From positions 9,751 to 73,750 of the forward strand of contig JBBTUN010000001.1 in the NCBI GenBank assembly GCA_038063735.1: 64,000 nt of DNA, written 5' to 3'. The notes under the pieces were generated by a model, which saw only the letters and a program-made list of their open reading frames with translations, made no database searches and had not been told where the DNA came from. Within the stretch, counting starts at the first letter, position 1; each line of letters starts with the position of its first letter. Origin of the DNA: Patescibacteria group bacterium (GTDB lineage: Bacteria; Patescibacteriota; Microgenomatia; Curtissbacterales; GWA2-41-24). Positions 10,014 to 52,187 of the stretch are shown here, piece after piece. Position numbers and translations under genes: made by a program.

Positions 10014-10919
10014 CTAACTTTTTTTTCTTTTAGTACTTAAATTATGCCAGACAACAAGAAGTGGTGCGGCGTTGAAGATGGATGAGTAGGTTCCGGAGAT
10101 CATGCCAATAAGTAACGCCAGAACAAATGTTTTAATACTTTCTCCGCCAAACAGGAAGAGTGCTATAAGAACAAAGATTGCAGTAAGAGATGTATTTAAG
10201 GACCGCCCTAAGGTTTGCAGCAGAGAGTGATTAACAATTTCCGGGAAATCGTAACCACTATGTTTAAGTAAGTTTTCCCTGATTCTATCGAAAACCACGA
10301 TTGTGTCGTGAACAGAAAACCCGATTACAGTAAGCAGAGCGGTTATAAAGAGTGAATCTATTTCGATGTTGGTAAAATGACCAATAATTGCAAAGATCCC
10401 GACAACAACAATAACGTCGTGCACAAGCGCAACAACTGTGCAAACGCCAAAAGCTATTGAGGACGCCGGCTTAGGAACTTTTCTAAACGAATAAGTAATA
10501 TAGGAAACGATTGCAAGAATTGATATTGCTACCGCGAGTAGTGCTTTTTGAGTTAGCTCCTTTGAAATTGTCGGGCCTACAGTTTCCAGACGTACATCTT
10601 CCACTTGTCCATATTTATCTTTTACCTTACTTTTAACATCGTTCAATTTTGCTTCCTCATTTATTTTTAGTCTCGCCAAAATTGAGTCATCCGAAGTCGT
10701 AGATACGGTTGAAGCCTCTGCACCAATATCATTTAAAAATGCCTGAAAGCTTTGGGTGGTTACGTTTTCTTTTTTTTCAACAAATTTTACCTCCCAAAGA
10801 GTCCCTCCTGTAAAATCTATTCCTAGCTTAAGACCCCATGTAAAAAGCGCTATTACTCCAGGGACAAGAATTATAAGAGAGAGAGCAAAGAAAAGATTAC
10901 GCTTTGCTATTAAATTCAT
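10014..10919 (-). CDS. secF: protein-export membrane protein SecF
   Basis: N-terminal FTWGLKLGIDFTGGTLWEV. 301 aa, polytopic. Confidence 0.85.
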   Translation of the reverse strand: MNLIAKRNLFFALSLIILVPGVIALFTWGLKLGIDFTGGTLWEVKFVEKKENVTTQSFQAFLNDIGAEASTVSTTSDDSILARLKINEEAKLNDVKSKVKDKYGQVEDVRLETVGPTISKELTQKALLAVAISILAIVSYITYSFRKVPKPASSIAFGVCTVVALVHDVIVVVGIFAIIGHFTNIEIDSLFITALLTVIGFSVHDTIVVFDRIRENLLKHSGYDFPEIVNHSLLQTLGRSLNTSLTAIFVLIALFLFGGESIKTFVLALLIGMISGTYSSIFNAAPLLVVWHNLSTKRKKS

Positions 10920-19927: not shown

Positions 19928-20472
19928 CATTTTGATAGATACAGTGAAAGTTTCTTTAATGCTTTTGCGCGGTGGGAAATTTTGTTTTTAAGTATTGGAT
20001 CTAGTTGGGCATAAGTTTTGTTGTATCCTGTTGGAATAAAAATTCTGTCAAAACCAAAACCGCTTTCTCCCTTGTTGGTTTTGGATAGAGTACCTTTTAC
20101 TACGCCTTTAAAGATTTTTAATTTTTGCCCGTCGTAAGCGCCAATGGCTGCAGTTACCGTTGTGTCTGATGAGTTTTTGCCGATTAGTTTTACTGTGCCT
20201 TCGGTGCCGATTTTCATCAGAAAAAATTTTATGAAAGTTCCCGGCAAGCCATTGAGTGCTTTTATTTCAAAGCTGATATCCTCAACAACCACGGGTTTTT
20301 TGACAATTTCGTAGGCTGCTTTTGCTTTTGCCTTAATTACTTTGTCTATATCTAGTGATTGGATTTCGTCAAGATCTAGTTCTTTAATTTTGATGTCAGG
20401 ACCTAAGATTTGTCTAATTTCCAAAGCTTTATTTTTATTGGAGGTGATGAAAGTAAAGTATTTAAGATTCAT
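19927..20472 (-). CDS. rdgB: RdgB/Ham1 family non-canonical purine NTP pyrophosphatase (dITP/XTP-ase)
   Basis: TSNKNKALEI, FGFDRIFIP and SHRAKAL motifs. Its start overlaps the RT stop by 4 nt (ATGA). Confidence 0.85.
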   Translation of the reverse strand: MNLKYFTFITSNKNKALEIRQILGPDIKIKELDLDEIQSLDIDKVIKAKAKAAYEIVKKPVVVEDISFEIKALNGLPGTFIKFFLMKIGTEGTVKLIGKNSSDTTVTAAIGAYDGQKLKIFKGVVKGTLSKTNKGESGFGFDRIFIPTGYNKTYAQLDPILKNKISHRAKALKKLSLYLSK

Positions 20473-21497
20473 GATTTTAAATAATAACTGTTTTTCAAGC
20501 TTTGTTGCAATTTAAAACTTTTTGCATGAGAAAAATAACCAAGATATGACTGTAGCGACTGATTCTCAATATACCTTTCTGCAACTTTCTTAAGAATTCT
20601 TCTTTTAGTTTTTGTCCTTGGCAAAGTATGATGAGGCAGGACAATATAGCCGCAAAAGTCGATTCCCCATTTTAACTTTCTCAAAGAGATTTTGTTCGGA
20701 TGAAGCTCCAGTTTTAACTGATCCTTTAAAAAATCGACAATTGAAACCAAATAACTATTTAGTTTTCCAACATCCGTATTAATAATAGTAAAGTCATCAG
20801 CGTAGCGCAGGTAATATTTGATTTTCAGATCGCGTTTGATAAACTGATCAAGTTCGTTCAAATAGATATTGGCAAAAATTTGGCTTGTTAAATTGCCAAG
20901 AGGAATACCTTTTCCAGAGCCTGCTTCTGAATGAAAACTATCTATAACTTCATCAATAAGGTTACTAATATTCTGGTCTTTTACTTTTTTGTACAGCAGG
21001 TTTTTTAAAATGTTATGGTCGATGGAATCGAAAAACTTTTTAATGTCTAGCTTCAAAGCCCAACATTCTCTTGTGTAATTATGGCTAACAATTCTTGCAA
21101 ACGTCTCCAGGCGCCTGACTGCTTTATGCGTCCCTTTTCCAGTTCTGCAAGAGTAAGAATCGCAGATGAACGTTTTATCATATATCTGGTAAAGATGTTT
21201 ATACAATAAATGGTGAAGAACCCTATCTGTCGCATTCGATTTATGGATATGCCTTCTTTTAGGGTCATTTACATAAAAATCTTTGTACGTGCCGTGTCTG
21301 TAAGTTTTATTTTTTAACCTATGGTGCAGGTCAAAAATATTATCTTCAAGATGAAGTTCGAGAATTTGTATATCATGCTTGCCATGTTTTCCCTTTTTAA
21401 ATTCTTCCCATGCTTGAAAAAGGTTTTCAATTGATATTAAACTGGAGTAAGTCATAACTTTTGAATTTTGCGTTTTGACATTTGAACTACTAAACAT
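20469..21497 (-). CDS. diversity-generating retroelement (DGR) reverse transcriptase
   Basis: RT motifs including YADDF. PLGNLTSQIFANIYL carries the DGR-typical [ILV]GxxxSQ in place of QGxxxSP. 342 aa. A cognate TR/VR pair lies nearby. Confidence 0.8.
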   Translation of the reverse strand: MFSSSNVKTQNSKVMTYSSLISIENLFQAWEEFKKGKHGKHDIQILELHLEDNIFDLHHRLKNKTYRHGTYKDFYVNDPKRRHIHKSNATDRVLHHLLYKHLYQIYDKTFICDSYSCRTGKGTHKAVRRLETFARIVSHNYTRECWALKLDIKKFFDSIDHNILKNLLYKKVKDQNISNLIDEVIDSFHSEAGSGKGIPLGNLTSQIFANIYLNELDQFIKRDLKIKYYLRYADDFTIINTDVGKLNSYLVSIVDFLKDQLKLELHPNKISLRKLKWGIDFCGYIVLPHHTLPRTKTKRRILKKVAERYIENQSLQSYLGYFSHAKSFKLQQSLKNSYYLKS

Positions 21498-21859
21498 GCC
21501 CCCCCCCCACGGACTTTGCGCCTGATATCCCCATATTTTCCAAACTTTACGACTTTTACAAAAATCTAAGTGGGGAAATTGAAAAATTCCCCAAGACTAA
21601 ACGTTATGGTCTGGGAGCAAAGCTTGATCAGATCGCGCTTGAGCTAATTGAGCTTATCGTGCGGGCAAGCTACTTGCAGCGCGAGCAGAAATTGCCTGTT
21701 CTGGAAAAATCTGTTATATCTGCCGATATTCTTAAGATACTATTAAGACTTGCTAAAGATACCAAAGCGATTGACAATAAAAAATACTTACAGCTAGAAA
21801 GTAATCTTCAGGAAATCGGCCGCATGATTGGCGGCTGGAAACGCTCAATAACAAAGTAA
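21496..21859 (+). CDS. avd: Avd (DGR accessory variability determinant, four-helix-bundle protein); reading frame interrupted by a C10 homopolymer
   Basis: The frame from 21500 to 21859 encodes ...YDFYKNLSGEIEKFPKTKRYGLGAKLDQIALELIELIV...LQEIGRMIGGWKRSITK, which is bAvd-like (compare ...EVGRILGSWIAR). ATG at 21496 is in frame only if the run is C9. As assembled (C10) the ATG frame stops at 21525, and the first in-frame start is GTG at 21659. Confidence 0.55.
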
Positions 21860-21917
21860 AGTTAAGGGAGATACTACAAACAGATCGCAATACCTCCCTT
21901 AAAATACAATTGCAAAA

Positions 21918-22038
21918 TACTCCCGAGGAACGTCCACCAAGATTCGAATTGTGATTGTCAGCGTTCAGATTCGAATTGACGTTCAAGTTGCCGTCACTGT
22001 TGAAGTTCGCATTGATCATGCGACCGTCGTTACGGGAA
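21918..22038 (-). repeat. DGR template repeat (TR), 121 bp, sense on the minus strand
   Basis: Identical to 22414-22534 except at 24 positions, and at every one of them the TR has A on the minus strand. Rich in AAC codons (the spurious ORF 21753..22046). Confidence 0.85.
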
Positions 22039-22401: not shown

Positions 22402-23163
22402 TTAAGCTTTCTTTACTCCCGAGGAACGCCCACCAAGAAGCGAATGGTGATTGTCAGCGCGCAGACCCGAAGCGACGCGCAAGCTGCCGTCACCGCCGAA
22501 GCCCGCAACGACCATGCGACCGCCGCCACGGGAAGCAAGTCGAACCCATGTGCTTACTTCATCTAAATATTTTCCTGTAAATAGCTTACTGTCCTGGCCA
22601 GCAACAATGTATTGGTTAAGATTAAGTATTGTTCTGCCGTCCTTTTTTATTCTTTCCATGAGCTCCTTTTCTTTAGTGTCAAGGTAAGGTGCGTCAATTG
22701 CAGCTTCGTAATCAAAATAGCCCGATGGGTTTTCGTCATTAGTTACAGAATTGCCTTCTTGGACACTGTGACTTTGCATTTTTGGAAACATTTCGCCCAA
22801 AAGATGACGAGTTTCTTGAGTTGCTACTGCTTGTGGAAGAACACCAACTCTGATATTTCTCTTCTCACGTTCTTTCAATTCTTTTTCACTGAGAGGACAC
22901 TGAGCAATATCGAAAGTTACACCAATAAGTTTGCCTCGAGCTTCCCAAATTCGACCAAATGTGTTGGTAACTGCATCTGGAGTATCTAGTTTAAATTCCG
23001 TGACCCCTTCCGCTTTGGGTACAGAAGTTCTTTGGCCATTGTCAAAATGTTCAGGTGCGCCAAGTTGTCTTGCAAGCTGCGCGTTTGCATTAAGGAAGGC
23101 ACGGAGGTGCTTAAATTGATCTCCTTTGAATTCTCCGGCTAATTTTTCTATGTCTGCTGACAT
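22402..23163 (-). CDS. DGR target (variable) protein, 253 aa, VR-encoded C-terminus
   Basis: The C-terminal ...WVRLASRGGGRMVVAGFGGDGSLRVASGLRADNHHSLLGGRSSGVKKA is encoded by the VR. No obvious signal peptide. Noticeably GC-richer than its surroundings. Confidence 0.75.
   Translation of the reverse strand: MSADIEKLAGEFKGDQFKHLRAFLNANAQLARQLGAPEHFDNGQRTSVPKAEGVTEFKLDTPDAVTNTFGRIWEARGKLIGVTFDIAQCPLSEKELKEREKRNIRVGVLPQAVATQETRHLLGEMFPKMQSHSVQEGNSVTNDENPSGYFDYEAAIDAPYLDTKEKELMERIKKDGRTILNLNQYIVAGQDSKLFTGKYLDEVSTWVRLASRGGGRMVVAGFGGDGSLRVASGLRADNHHSLLGGRSSGVKKA
22414..22534 (-). repeat. DGR variable repeat (VR) at the 3' end of the target gene
   Basis: Counterpart of the TR. All 24 differences fall at TR adenines. 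Ends 12 nt before the target gene stop. Confidence 0.85.
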
Positions 23164-51261: not shown

Positions 51262-52187
51262 TTTATTTCAATCCCTCTCTCTCTTAATTTCTCTTCAACC
51301 AAAGCTATCGATTTTGGTCCTAAGTTCTTCATTTTCATCAGCTCTTTTTTGTCTCTGTCCATAAAGTCGCCAATCGTTTCAATTTTTCCACTCTTTAAGC
51401 TGTTTGTAAGTCTTACAGGAAGATCCAGTTCTTCGAGTGAAGTTTTTACAATTTCATCTGTTAGGGCTGTTGTTGGTTCAACTACCTCTGACTTTTGTTT
51501 CTTAGGACTTTGTTGTGGTTCATATATTGTTGCGAAGTGATCAACCAATATTTTTGCTGCCTGCTTTAGAGCATCTGATGGTTTAACTGTTCCATCGGTT
51601 GTGATCTCTATTGTCAACTTATCAAAGTTGGTGACTCTTCCAACACGTGTTGCTTCAACGTGATAGTTAGCCTTGCTAACAGGTGAAAAATTAGCATCTA
51701 CCGGAATTAATCCGATTTCACCAGTTTTTCTTTCGTCAGCCAAGGAGTAACCACTTCCGTTTTCTGCAATAATACTTGCTGTTAACTTAGCTTTTGCGTC
51801 TGCCAGACGTGCCAAGGTAAGATCTCCGTTTACAATTTCTGCACCGGCACTTGGAGTTAAATCTTTTGCTTTAACTTCTTTTGGTCCTTTAACGTCTAGT
51901 GTAAGTTTTACAGGTTTGTCCGAAGAAATTTTTAGACGGAGCTTTTTAAGGTTCAAAATAAATTCTACTATGTCTTCTGACATACCATTAACTGCAGTAA
52001 ATTGGTGTCTTACACCAGAAATTTTTACCTGCGTTACTGCTGCACCAGACAAAGAAGTCAAAAGTACGCGTCGCAGAGAATTTCCAATAGTATGACCATA
52101 TCCTTGATCTAAAGGTTCGATTACAAATTTACCAAAATCTTCTGTTTCTTTTTCTGTTTCTGTTATTATTTGAGATAAATCTAACAC
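51258..52187 (-). CDS. rpoA: DNA-directed RNA polymerase subunit alpha
   Basis: GHTIGNSLRRVLLTSL and the C-terminal CTD. Confidence 0.9.
   Translation of the reverse strand: MLDLSQIITETEKETEDFGKFVIEPLDQGYGHTIGNSLRRVLLTSLSGAAVTQVKISGVRHQFTAVNGMSEDIVEFILNLKKLRLKISSDKPVKLTLDVKGPKEVKAKDLTPSAGAEIVNGDLTLARLADAKAKLTASIIAENGSGYSLADERKTGEIGLIPVDANFSPVSKANYHVEATRVGRVTNFDKLTIEITTDGTVKPSDALKQAAKILVDHFATIYEPQQSPKKQKSEVVEPTTALTDEIVKTSLEELDLPVRLTNSLKSGKIETIGDFMDRDKKELMKMKNLGPKSIALVEEKLRERGIEIK

What the first reader, a model, noticed from the sequence alone, without database searches (positions are those of the whole stretch)
21480..21530. avd on the opposite strand, start codon shared with the RT in a CATG, and a C10/G10 tract that frameshifts avd
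The Avd-like frame (bAvd-like C-terminus ...EIGRMIGGWKRS) runs on the plus strand, antisense to the RT/TR/VR. The avd ATG (21496-21498) and the RT ATG (21497-21495) interlock in a single CATG. Immediately after it comes a run of 10 C. On the RT side this is a G10 occupying the Shine-Dalgarno position. With C10 the avd ATG frame ends after 9 codons; with C9 it reads straight into the 121-aa Avd. So either the homopolymer is a sequencing error, or it is a slipped-strand contingency tract that switches the DGR accessory protein on and off (and may tune the RT RBS). The latter would make diversification itself phase-variable. A programmed ribosomal frameshift on CCC.CCC.CCC.C is a third option.
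Basis: seen in the sequence. Interest (0 to 1): 0.65.

Follow-up and report, generated by a model that had tools for sequence, protein, structure and literature searches.

The report
Slippery C-tract switch on DGR avd
A run of ten C's at the very start of the helper gene (avd) of a targeted-hypermutation element puts that gene out of frame, and related groundwater bacteria show the same run (or a CA repeat) changing length between samples, so the mutation machine itself appears to be switched on and off by a slippery repeat.

Summary
CATG sits at 21495-21498 and C10 at 21499-21508, the only G/C run longer than 6 in 64 kb. The avd ATG frame stops after 9 codons. With C9 it gives a 120-aa Avd (reader: 121) next to an intact DGR: RT, and TR/VR with 24/24 mismatches at TR adenines.

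Relatives decide the reading. In 152 of 160 related Patescibacteria loci, avd and RT lie head to head. In 61 loci a simple repeat (C7-C12, (CA)n, once (AG)12) sits between the avd ATG and the conserved DIPIF. That is about 90-fold above the flanking density. Unique loci split 20 in frame, 17 at +1 and 19 at +2. Repeat-free relatives almost always have an in-frame ATG (96/99).

Contigs with identical RT proteins from different samples carry C8/C9/C10, C9/C10, C10/C11 or CA tracts differing by one unit, often as the only difference in about 1.45 kb. The only other contig of this lineage has C11. Out-of-frame avd bodies stay intact (dN/dS 0.03-0.06).

Best reading: a contingency-type switch on Avd, caught OFF here. 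The shared CATG and G10-as-RBS ideas are not conserved. No paper found describes this.

The parts
21499..21508 (+). C10 homopolymer (G10 on the RT strand). Simple-sequence repeat between the avd start codon and the conserved Avd body.
   Evidence: The same site carries C7-C12 or (CA)n in 61 related loci. The length is polymorphic within lineages.
21496..21525 (+). avd start codon and the 9-codon out-of-frame product (MPPPHGLCA, stop) of the C10 allele.
   Evidence: An ATG directly abutting the C run is conserved in at least 12 sister lineages.
21509..21859 (+). Avd body, in the frame reached from the ATG only with C9 or C12. Four-helix-bundle accessory variability determinant. The stop is at 21857-21859.
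   Evidence: Homologues start MPPP[TA]DF..DIPIF.
20469..21497 (-). DGR reverse transcriptase ORF (342 aa from the CATG). The likely true start is Met15, at ATG 21455..21453 (328 aa).
   Evidence: RVT_1 at 1.5e-22. The YADD and LGNLTSQ motifs are read in the translation. Most homologues start at the Met15 equivalent.
21456..21495 (.). 40-nt stretch between the divergent avd ATG and RT Met15. It contains TTTTGA-type repeats conserved at the DNA level in poly-C relatives. It is presumed to be a shared 5' control region.
   Evidence: sequence comparison. Its function is inferred.
21862..21902 (-). 18-pair hairpin between the avd stop and the 3' end of TR. It could be a bidirectional terminator or a structured spacer of the DGR RNA.
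   Evidence: Its function is inferred.
21918..22038 (-). Template repeat (TR).
   Evidence: It is 121 nt, with 24 mismatches to VR, all at TR adenines.
22414..22534 (-). Variable repeat (VR) at the 3' end of the target gene.
22402..23163 (-). DGR target gene (253 aa, no Pfam or NCBIfam hit), with VR in its C-terminal part.

Best explanation
The C tract is a slipped-strand (contingency-type) switch built into the 5' end of avd in a Patescibacteria DGR.

How it works:
- avd translation starts at ATG 21496.
- The ribosome reaches the functional four-helix Avd body only through the tract, which in the ON state encodes Pro-Pro-Pro.
- C9 or C12 is ON. C10 (this window) and C11 (the only other contig of this lineage) are OFF.
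- Replication slippage changes the tract length at high frequency. Each population therefore holds a mix of Avd-ON and Avd-OFF cells.
- Avd is required with the RT for cDNA synthesis and retrohoming. The tract therefore gates adenine mutagenesis of the target VR.

Shown here:
- The anatomy of the locus.
- The conserved placement of a repeat at this site.
- Length polymorphism between otherwise identical contigs.
- Equal use of the three frames.
- Purifying selection on OFF-state avd bodies.

Inferred:
- That the length changes arise by reversible slippage within clones.
- That OFF alleles make no (or very little) Avd.
- That DGR activity follows the avd state.
For: (1) Anatomy. The tract lies between the ATG and the conserved body. 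The C9 product matches Avd models and the N-termini of homologues.

(2) The DGR is otherwise intact. The RT ORF is complete, and all 24 TR/VR mismatches fall at TR adenines.

(3) Family pattern. In 152 of 160 related loci, RT and avd lie head to head. In 61 loci the 113 nt 5' of DIPIF hold poly-C, (CA)n or (AG)n. That is 3.4 repeats per kb against 0.037 per kb elsewhere in 757 kb.

(4) Frame state. Of the 61 repeat-bearing loci, 21 are ON and 40 OFF. The 56 unique ones split 20/17/19 across the three frames (chi-square p = 0.88). Of 99 repeat-free loci, 96 have an in-frame ATG, usually M-x-x-x-DIPIF.

(5) Within-lineage polymorphism, in contigs that encode an identical RT protein:
- P0231: C9 x4 (avd called as 119 aa), C10 x5.
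- P0180: C8 x2, C9 x4, C10 x2.
- P0192: C9 x2, C10 x3.
- P0198: C10 x8, C11 x2.
- P0219: CA tract of 15 nt x3, 13 nt x2.
- Window C10 against L001 C11.
In three of these groups the repeat indel is the only variable column in about 1,450 nt.

(6) OFF-state avd bodies contain no stops. dN/dS between pairs of OFF loci is 0.06 and 0.03.

(7) The repeat types are interleaved on an Avd tree, with at least 32 state changes. This suggests repeated gain or conversion.

(8) Avd is needed for DGR function (PMC6182149 abstract; PMC12875486).
Against: - No reads were available, so heterogeneity within a single sample is not shown. Differences between assemblies could partly reflect consensus errors at homopolymers. 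L001 has only 3x coverage.
- In this lineage only OFF lengths (10 and 11) were seen. Three sister lineages were OFF in every contig (P0198, P0214, P0219). This is also what slow decay would give.
- A run of CCC codons is intrinsically prone to ribosomal or RNA-polymerase slippage, so OFF may mean low rather than zero expression.
- No Shine-Dalgarno or clear promoter for avd was found.
- The link between avd state and VR diversification was not tested.
Confidence: 0.7

Rival explanations
1. Sequencing or assembly error. The true tract in this organism is C9, and the extra C is a homopolymer consensus error. avd is then simply an ordinary intact gene.
For: Homopolymers of 10 or more are error-prone. 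L001 has only 3x coverage. The C9 form is the conserved protein. Some sister assemblies do show C9.
Against: Two independent contigs of this lineage give 10 and 11, never 9. Out-of-frame lengths recur in dozens of independent assemblies. They are equally frequent at (CA)n and (GA)n repeats, which are not prone to homopolymer errors. The 1:1:1 frame distribution is not what occasional errors on an in-frame gene would give.
Confidence: 0.1
2. Recoding. Full-length Avd is made from the C10 allele by a +1 ribosomal slip on CCC-C during poly-proline stalling, or by RNA-polymerase slippage on the C run. The tract would then set the expression level rather than act as a heritable switch.
For: ATG-CCC-CCC-CCC-C allows perfect re-pairing of tRNA-Pro after a +1 slip and would give exactly MPPPTDF. 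It is established knowledge, from my own memory, that CCC-C sites are prone to +1 shifts and that long homopolymers allow transcriptional slippage.
Against: Relatives show no preferred offset: 17 loci at +1 against 19 at +2, and 20 in frame. The same position is occupied by (CA)n or (AG)n, where such slips are not expected. Tract length varies at the DNA level within lineages. This mechanism may coexist with the switch as leakiness.
Confidence: 0.1
3. Decay. The repeat is a mutational weak spot and this DGR, like many others, is a dying element whose avd is a fresh pseudogene. Alternatively, a truncated product from ATA 21533 (as annotated in GenBank, P0002) or from GTG 21659 is what is actually used.
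For: Surveys report many inactivated DGRs (PMC5758913). Three sister lineages were OFF in all contigs. A uniform frame distribution is also expected without selection on frame.
Against: All OFF avd bodies are free of stops, and dN/dS is 0.03-0.06 between OFF loci. The repeats are pure, long and conserved in position across Avd identities from 100% down to about 42%. ON and OFF alleles coexist within one RT-identical lineage. No ATG, GTG or TTG lies between the repeat and DIPIF in most OFF loci. A 66-aa product would lack the first two helices covered by the Avd profile.
Confidence: 0.08

Closest known systems
Bordetella phage BPP-1 DGR (avd-TR-brt operon)
   Same: It has the same parts: an Avd four-helix-bundle protein, an RT with a YxDD motif, a TR/VR pair with adenine-specific changes, and VR at the C-terminus of the target. 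Avd is required together with the RT (PMC6182149, PMC12875486).
   Different: Here avd lies between TR and RT on the opposite strand, head to head with RT, and it carries a slippery repeat after its start codon. No such repeat or switch is described for BPP-1. Known DGR regulation is transcriptional (bioRxiv 10.1101/2024.11.15.621889).
CPR/Patescibacteria DGRs (clade 2 of Roux et al. 2021; 'B3' architecture of Wu et al. 2018)
   Same: The taxon, the cassette type, and a small target with no recognisable domain all match.
   Different: Those surveys do not mention repeats in avd or RT. One of them discarded elements with premature stops as inactive, which would have hidden this pattern.
Simple-sequence contingency loci of Haemophilus, Neisseria, Campylobacter and Helicobacter (poly-G/C or short repeats in the 5' coding region; own knowledge, see also PMC3315296 and PMC3025981)
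   Same: A pure repeat sits just after the start codon. Its length is polymorphic between otherwise identical sequences. There are three frame states, with ON in about one third. The repeat is strongly over-represented relative to the genome background.
   Different: The classical cases switch surface structures or restriction-modification genes in host-adapted pathogens. Here the switched gene is a component of a targeted hypermutation machine, in free-living or episymbiotic groundwater CPR bacteria.
Repeat-mediated mutator switches (tandem-repeat indels in mutL/mutS) and phase-variable methyltransferase 'phasevarions' (own knowledge, not checked here)
   Same: The concept is the same: a hypermutable repeat toggles a gene that itself controls variation.
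   Different: Those switches change genome-wide mutation or methylation. This one would gate mutagenesis confined to a single variable repeat.

Membership tests
Diversity-generating retroelement (DGR) | TR/VR repeat pair whose differences fall at adenines of TR | tested here: met
   121-nt repeat with 24 mismatches, all at TR adenines (24 of 34 adenines).
Diversity-generating retroelement (DGR) | Adjacent reverse transcriptase of the DGR type | tested here: met
   RVT_1 at 1.5e-22. The YADD and LGNLTSQ motifs are visible in the ORF. Thousands of Patescibacteria RT homologues sit next to avd.
Diversity-generating retroelement (DGR) | VR at the 3' end of a target ORF | tested here: met
   VR 22414-22534 lies at the C-terminus of ORF 22402..23163(-).
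Avd (bAvd / DivGenRetAVD) | Sequence match to the Avd four-helix-bundle profile over its full length | tested here: met
   Pfam PF22296 at 62.3 bits (cut-off 40), covering 6-106 of 107. NCBIfam NF033474 at 78.2 bits (cut-off 80, marginally below), covering 2-103 of 104.
Avd (bAvd / DivGenRetAVD) | Intact ORF with a start codon in frame | tested here: not met
   With C10 the ATG frame stops after 9 codons, and the Avd frame has no ATG, GTG or TTG before residue 55. The frame is restored by C9 or C12.
Simple-sequence contingency (phase-variable) locus | Pure repeat inside the 5' coding region, over-represented relative to background | tested here: met
   C10 is the only G/C run longer than 6 in 64 kb. 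Enrichment at this site across 757 kb of related loci is about 90-fold.
Simple-sequence contingency (phase-variable) locus | Repeat length differs between otherwise identical sequences and changes the frame | tested here: met
   Window C10 against L001 C11 is the only difference in the aligned region. Five sister lineages are polymorphic, including ON and OFF alleles with an identical RT.
Simple-sequence contingency (phase-variable) locus | High-frequency, reversible switching within a clonal population | not testable with these tools
   This needs read-level tract-length distributions or cultures. No reads were available.
Simple-sequence contingency (phase-variable) locus | Expression or phenotype follows the tract state | not testable with these tools
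   This needs reporters, proteomics, or the correlation of VR diversity with the ON fraction.
Programmed ribosomal frameshift site | One conserved frame relationship (always +1 or always -1) among homologues | tested here: not met
   The 56 unique repeat-bearing loci split 20 in frame, 17 at +1 and 19 at +2.
Programmed ribosomal frameshift site | Stimulatory element (upstream SD-like or downstream structure) conserved next to the slip site | not tested
   No search for such elements was made.
CPR-type DGR cassette ('B3' of Wu et al. 2018) | avd and TR order or orientation different from the Bordetella type | tested here: inconclusive
   The head-to-head avd/RT arrangement, with TR beyond avd, is present here and in 152 of 160 relatives. 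I could read only the text saying that B subtypes differ in avd/TR order and orientation and that B3 makes up 90% of CPR DGRs. I could not read the figure that defines B3.

The most novel reading that the evidence does not exclude
Simple-sequence repeats are a selected and so far undescribed control layer of Patescibacteria DGRs. A slippery poly-C or (CA)n tract at the start of avd occurs in about 38% of related loci. In sister lineages a (GA)n or poly-G tract sits inside the RT at about residue 190, in about 15% of loci. These tracts would make targeted hypermutation itself phase-variable: most cells keep the DGR OFF and a shifting minority diversify the target. The many 'frameshifted, inactive' DGRs discarded by earlier surveys would then be switched-off elements, not dead ones.
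Probability: 0.5. Interest if true: 0.85.

Novelty: new variant of a known kind. Interest (0 to 1): 0.72.

Why it matters
DGRs are the only known natural system of targeted protein hypermutation in prokaryotes. How bacterial hosts restrain them is an open question. So far only transcriptional control has been reported.

A heritable, stochastic repeat switch on Avd, and on RT in sister lineages, would be a simple answer for the CPR bacteria. These bacteria are among the lineages most enriched in DGRs.

It would also change how such elements are counted. Frameshifted avd or RT genes have been treated as inactivated elements. The GenBank record behind P0002 instead starts the protein at an ATA codon.

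The idea is directly testable with existing time-series groundwater metagenomes: tract-length distribution can be compared with VR diversity.

Tried and rejected
Look-ups that found nothing:
- Exact-protein look-ups of the 66-aa GTG ORF and of P0002.
- Paul et al. 2017 could not be read.

Ideas considered and rejected:
- The CATG 'interlock' as a conserved feature. L002 and L082 have no CATG. In L138, L042, L092 and the P0231 group the RT frame closes before it.
- G10 as the RT Shine-Dalgarno. Most RTs start at the Met15 equivalent, 40 nt away.
- A start at ATC 21527 or ATA 21533. These Ile codons are conserved as Ile in all relatives, including those with a normal upstream ATG, and nothing marks them as starts.
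- The C tract as the GC-rich element next to IMH. It is not adjacent to TR or VR.

Weak or failed analyses:
- The simple promoter scan gave no convincing avd or RT promoter around the tract.
- Ungapped dN/dS gave unusable values for several distant pairs, through saturation or misregister. Only the two close pairs are cited.

Literature: searches combining DGR with phase variation, homopolymer, simple sequence repeat, slipped-strand or contingency terms found nothing relevant.

Full report
**1. The observation**

The sequence is as described.
- CATG lies at 21495-21498 and is followed by exactly ten C (21499-21508).
- On the + strand, ATG 21496 reads MPPPHGLCA and then stops at 21523-21525.
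- The neighbouring frame is open from 21494 to the stop at 21857-21859. It has no ATG, GTG or TTG until GTG 21659, which starts the 66-aa ORF.
- Deleting one C joins the ATG to this frame and gives a 120-aa protein.
- That protein matches Pfam bAvd (6.9e-17, above the gathering score) and NCBIfam DivGenRetAVD (4.9e-22, 78.2 bits against a cut-off of 80) over essentially the whole profile.
- C10 is the only G or C run longer than 6 in the 64-kb window. From the 38.6% G+C content I expect about 0.007 such runs.

**2. The surrounding element**

On the - strand, in order:
- A 253-aa target ORF (22402..23163) with no domain hit.
- Its C-terminal VR (22414-22534).
- The TR (21918-22038).
- An 18-pair hairpin (21862-21902).
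- avd in antisense.
- The RT ORF (20469..21497), which hits RVT_1 at 1.5e-22 and shows the YADD and LGNLTSQ motifs.

TR and VR are 121 nt long and differ at 24 positions. All 24 are TR adenines. Apart from the avd frame, this is a complete DGR that has been active in the past.

**3. What the relatives show**

*N-termini of Avd homologues.* A protein search with the C9-joined Avd found 158 relatives, named as Patescibacteria (Levy-, Curtiss-, Beckwithbacteria and others) wherever a source gave a name. Several begin MPPP[TA]DF..DIPIF, so the C9 reading is the conserved one. Others begin with HTHTHT-type stretches, which are (CA)n in the DNA.

*Architecture.* I fetched 160 related loci from genome and metagenome collections. 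In 152 of them the RT lies immediately upstream of avd on the opposite strand. The head-to-head arrangement is therefore the family architecture. This agrees with the report that one cassette subtype, which differs in avd/TR order and orientation, accounts for 90% of CPR DGRs (PMC5758913).

*A repeat at the avd start.* The key result concerns the 113 nt 5' of the conserved DIPIF of Avd.
- 61 loci carry a simple repeat there: C7 to C12, (CA)4 to (CA)20, and once (AG)12.
- Across 757 kb of these loci the repeat density at this site is 3.4 per kb. Elsewhere it is 0.037 per kb.
- Every repeat-bearing locus has an ATG upstream whose frame stays open into the repeat.
- That ATG is in frame with Avd in 21 loci and out of frame in 40.
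- After removing duplicates, the 56 unique loci split 20 in frame, 17 at +1 and 19 at +2 (chi-square p = 0.88).
- Relatives without a repeat have an in-frame ATG in 96 of 99 cases, typically only four codons before DIPIF.

The N-terminal extension therefore exists only where a repeat exists. It acts as a linker between the start codon and the body of the gene.

**4. Polymorphism within lineages**

I used RT proteins as handles and retrieved contigs from different samples that encode exactly the same RT. The tract lengths were as follows.

| RT lineage | Tract lengths seen | Note |
|---|---|---|
| P0231 (same ATG-Cn-ACGGAC context as the window) | C9 x4, C10 x5, plus one C8AC variant | avd called as 119 aa in the C9 contigs; avd not called or truncated in the C10 contigs |
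| P0180 | C8 x2, C9 x4, C10 x2 | |
| P0192 | C9 x2, C10 x3 | |
| P0198 | C10 x8, C11 x2 | all OFF |
| P0214 | C8 x6 | all OFF |
| P0219 | CA tract of 15 nt x3, 13 nt x2 | both lengths OFF |
| Window lineage | C10 (window), C11 (L001, ENA ERZ1292623, 3x coverage) | both OFF |

In the window/L001, P0198 and P0219 groups, the repeat indel is the only variable column in about 1,450 aligned nucleotides.

**5. Not decay**

All 40 OFF loci keep an Avd body without stops. dN/dS between pairs of OFF loci is 0.06 (window against L082) and 0.03 (L029 against L035). The repeat types are interleaved on a rough Avd tree, with at least 32 state changes over 146 sequences. This suggests repeated origin or conversion.

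**6. Mechanism**

The best-supported reading is a contingency-type switch.
- Slipped-strand mispairing changes the tract length.
- Only lengths that are multiples of three, in this context, connect the ATG to Avd.
- The window carries an OFF allele.
- In the Bordetella system Avd and RT together are necessary for cDNA synthesis, and loss of Avd abolishes retrohoming (PMC6182149; PMC12875486). The tract should therefore gate diversification of the 253-aa target.

Shown: the anatomy, the site-specific enrichment, the polymorphism, the frame statistics and the selection on the gene body.

Inferred: reversibility within clones, the absence of Avd from OFF alleles, and the coupling to VR mutagenesis.

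**7. Rivals**

- *Assembly error.* It cannot be excluded for this single contig. It does not explain out-of-frame (CA)n and (GA)n tracts or the 1:1:1 frame distribution.
- *Programmed +1 slippage on CCC-C, or transcriptional slippage.* This is chemically plausible and may make OFF leaky. However, relatives show no preferred offset, and dinucleotide repeats occupy the same site.
- *Pseudogenisation.* The intact, constrained bodies and the ON/OFF alleles within RT-identical lineages argue against it.
- *A start at ATA 21533.* GenBank uses this start for P0002, a 108-aa product 99% identical to the query and evidently the annotated product of this locus. It has no supporting signal, because these Ile codons are conserved as Ile throughout the family.

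**8. The RT start and the CATG**

- Most RT homologues begin M[DTN]YSxLISIENLFQAW, which is the equivalent of window Met15 (ATG 21455..21453).
- In the P0231, L138, L042 and L092 lineages the RT frame closes before the CATG. L002 and L082 have no CATG.
- A window-like extension (SKVKTQKSK) occurs in P0126 and P0150. In P0150 the Met15 equivalent is Ile.
- The interlocked start is therefore possible in this sub-lineage, but it is not a family feature. G10 acting as the RT ribosome-binding site is unsupported.

**9. A second switch site**

In 24 loci whose avd has no repeat, a (GA)n tract (5 to 35 units) or G9-G10 lies inside the RT at about residue 190. The RT frame is kept in 8 of these loci and broken in 16. 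The two repeat sites did not co-occur. Together they affect about half of the 160 loci.

**10. Novelty**

Searches of the held literature found no description of this. They combined DGR or Avd with phase variation, homopolymer, simple sequence repeat, slipped-strand or contingency terms. Checks of the main surveys and reviews also found none. [quoted passage not shown]

Paul et al. 2017, the main CPR DGR paper, could not be read. Prior mention therefore cannot be excluded.

I rate this as a new variant of known kinds: an SSR phase-variation switch applied to a DGR. Interest is 0.72.

Noticed in passing
Related loci, e.g. L054 (GA x35), L047, L052, L060, L115, L145, L066 (G10); about 570-660 nt from the avd anchor, inside the RT ORF at window-RT residue ~188-195: There is a second repeat hot spot. 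In 24 loci whose avd has no repeat, a (GA)n or poly-G tract lies inside the RT. The RT frame is kept in 8 of them and broken in 16. This looks like an alternative switch on the RT itself.
   Followed up: partly
window 21862-21902 (- strand): An 18-pair hairpin lies between the avd stop codon and the 3' end of TR. It could be a bidirectional terminator for the convergent avd mRNA and TR RNA, or the structured spacer that recruits RT-Avd.
   Followed up: no
window 21456-21495 and the same region of L002, L003, L009, L138 and the P0231/P0198 loci: Repeated TTTTGA-like motifs are conserved at the DNA level between the divergent avd and RT starts. On the RT strand they read as SKVKTQKSK, which gene callers include in some RT proteins. 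This may be a shared control region.
   Followed up: no
window 21533 (ATA); protein P0002: P0002 (108 aa, 99% identical, from a 103,588-nt Patescibacteria MAG contig) is evidently the GenBank product of this locus. It starts at the ATA codon 21533, which hides the frameshift.
   Followed up: partly
RT proteins P0127, P0131, P0152, P0188: Some called RT ORFs read through the G run (..GGGG..). Some also lack Met at the usual start position. In L092 (P0131) the real start is an ATG downstream of the run, so these look like over-extended gene calls. An overlap of both ORFs on the repeat was not excluded for every lineage.
   Followed up: partly
L086 (Ga0209541_10001211, 51.8-kb contig): This locus has an avd with an ATG-C10 start and the usual upstream motifs. 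No RT hit was found within 3 kb on either side. It may be an orphan avd or a rearranged DGR.
   Followed up: no
whole window: There is a strong strand asymmetry of homopolymers: 236 T runs of 6 or more against 59 A runs. (AG)5 at 10876-10885 and (CT)5 at 51275-51284 are the only other short repeats picked up.
   Followed up: no
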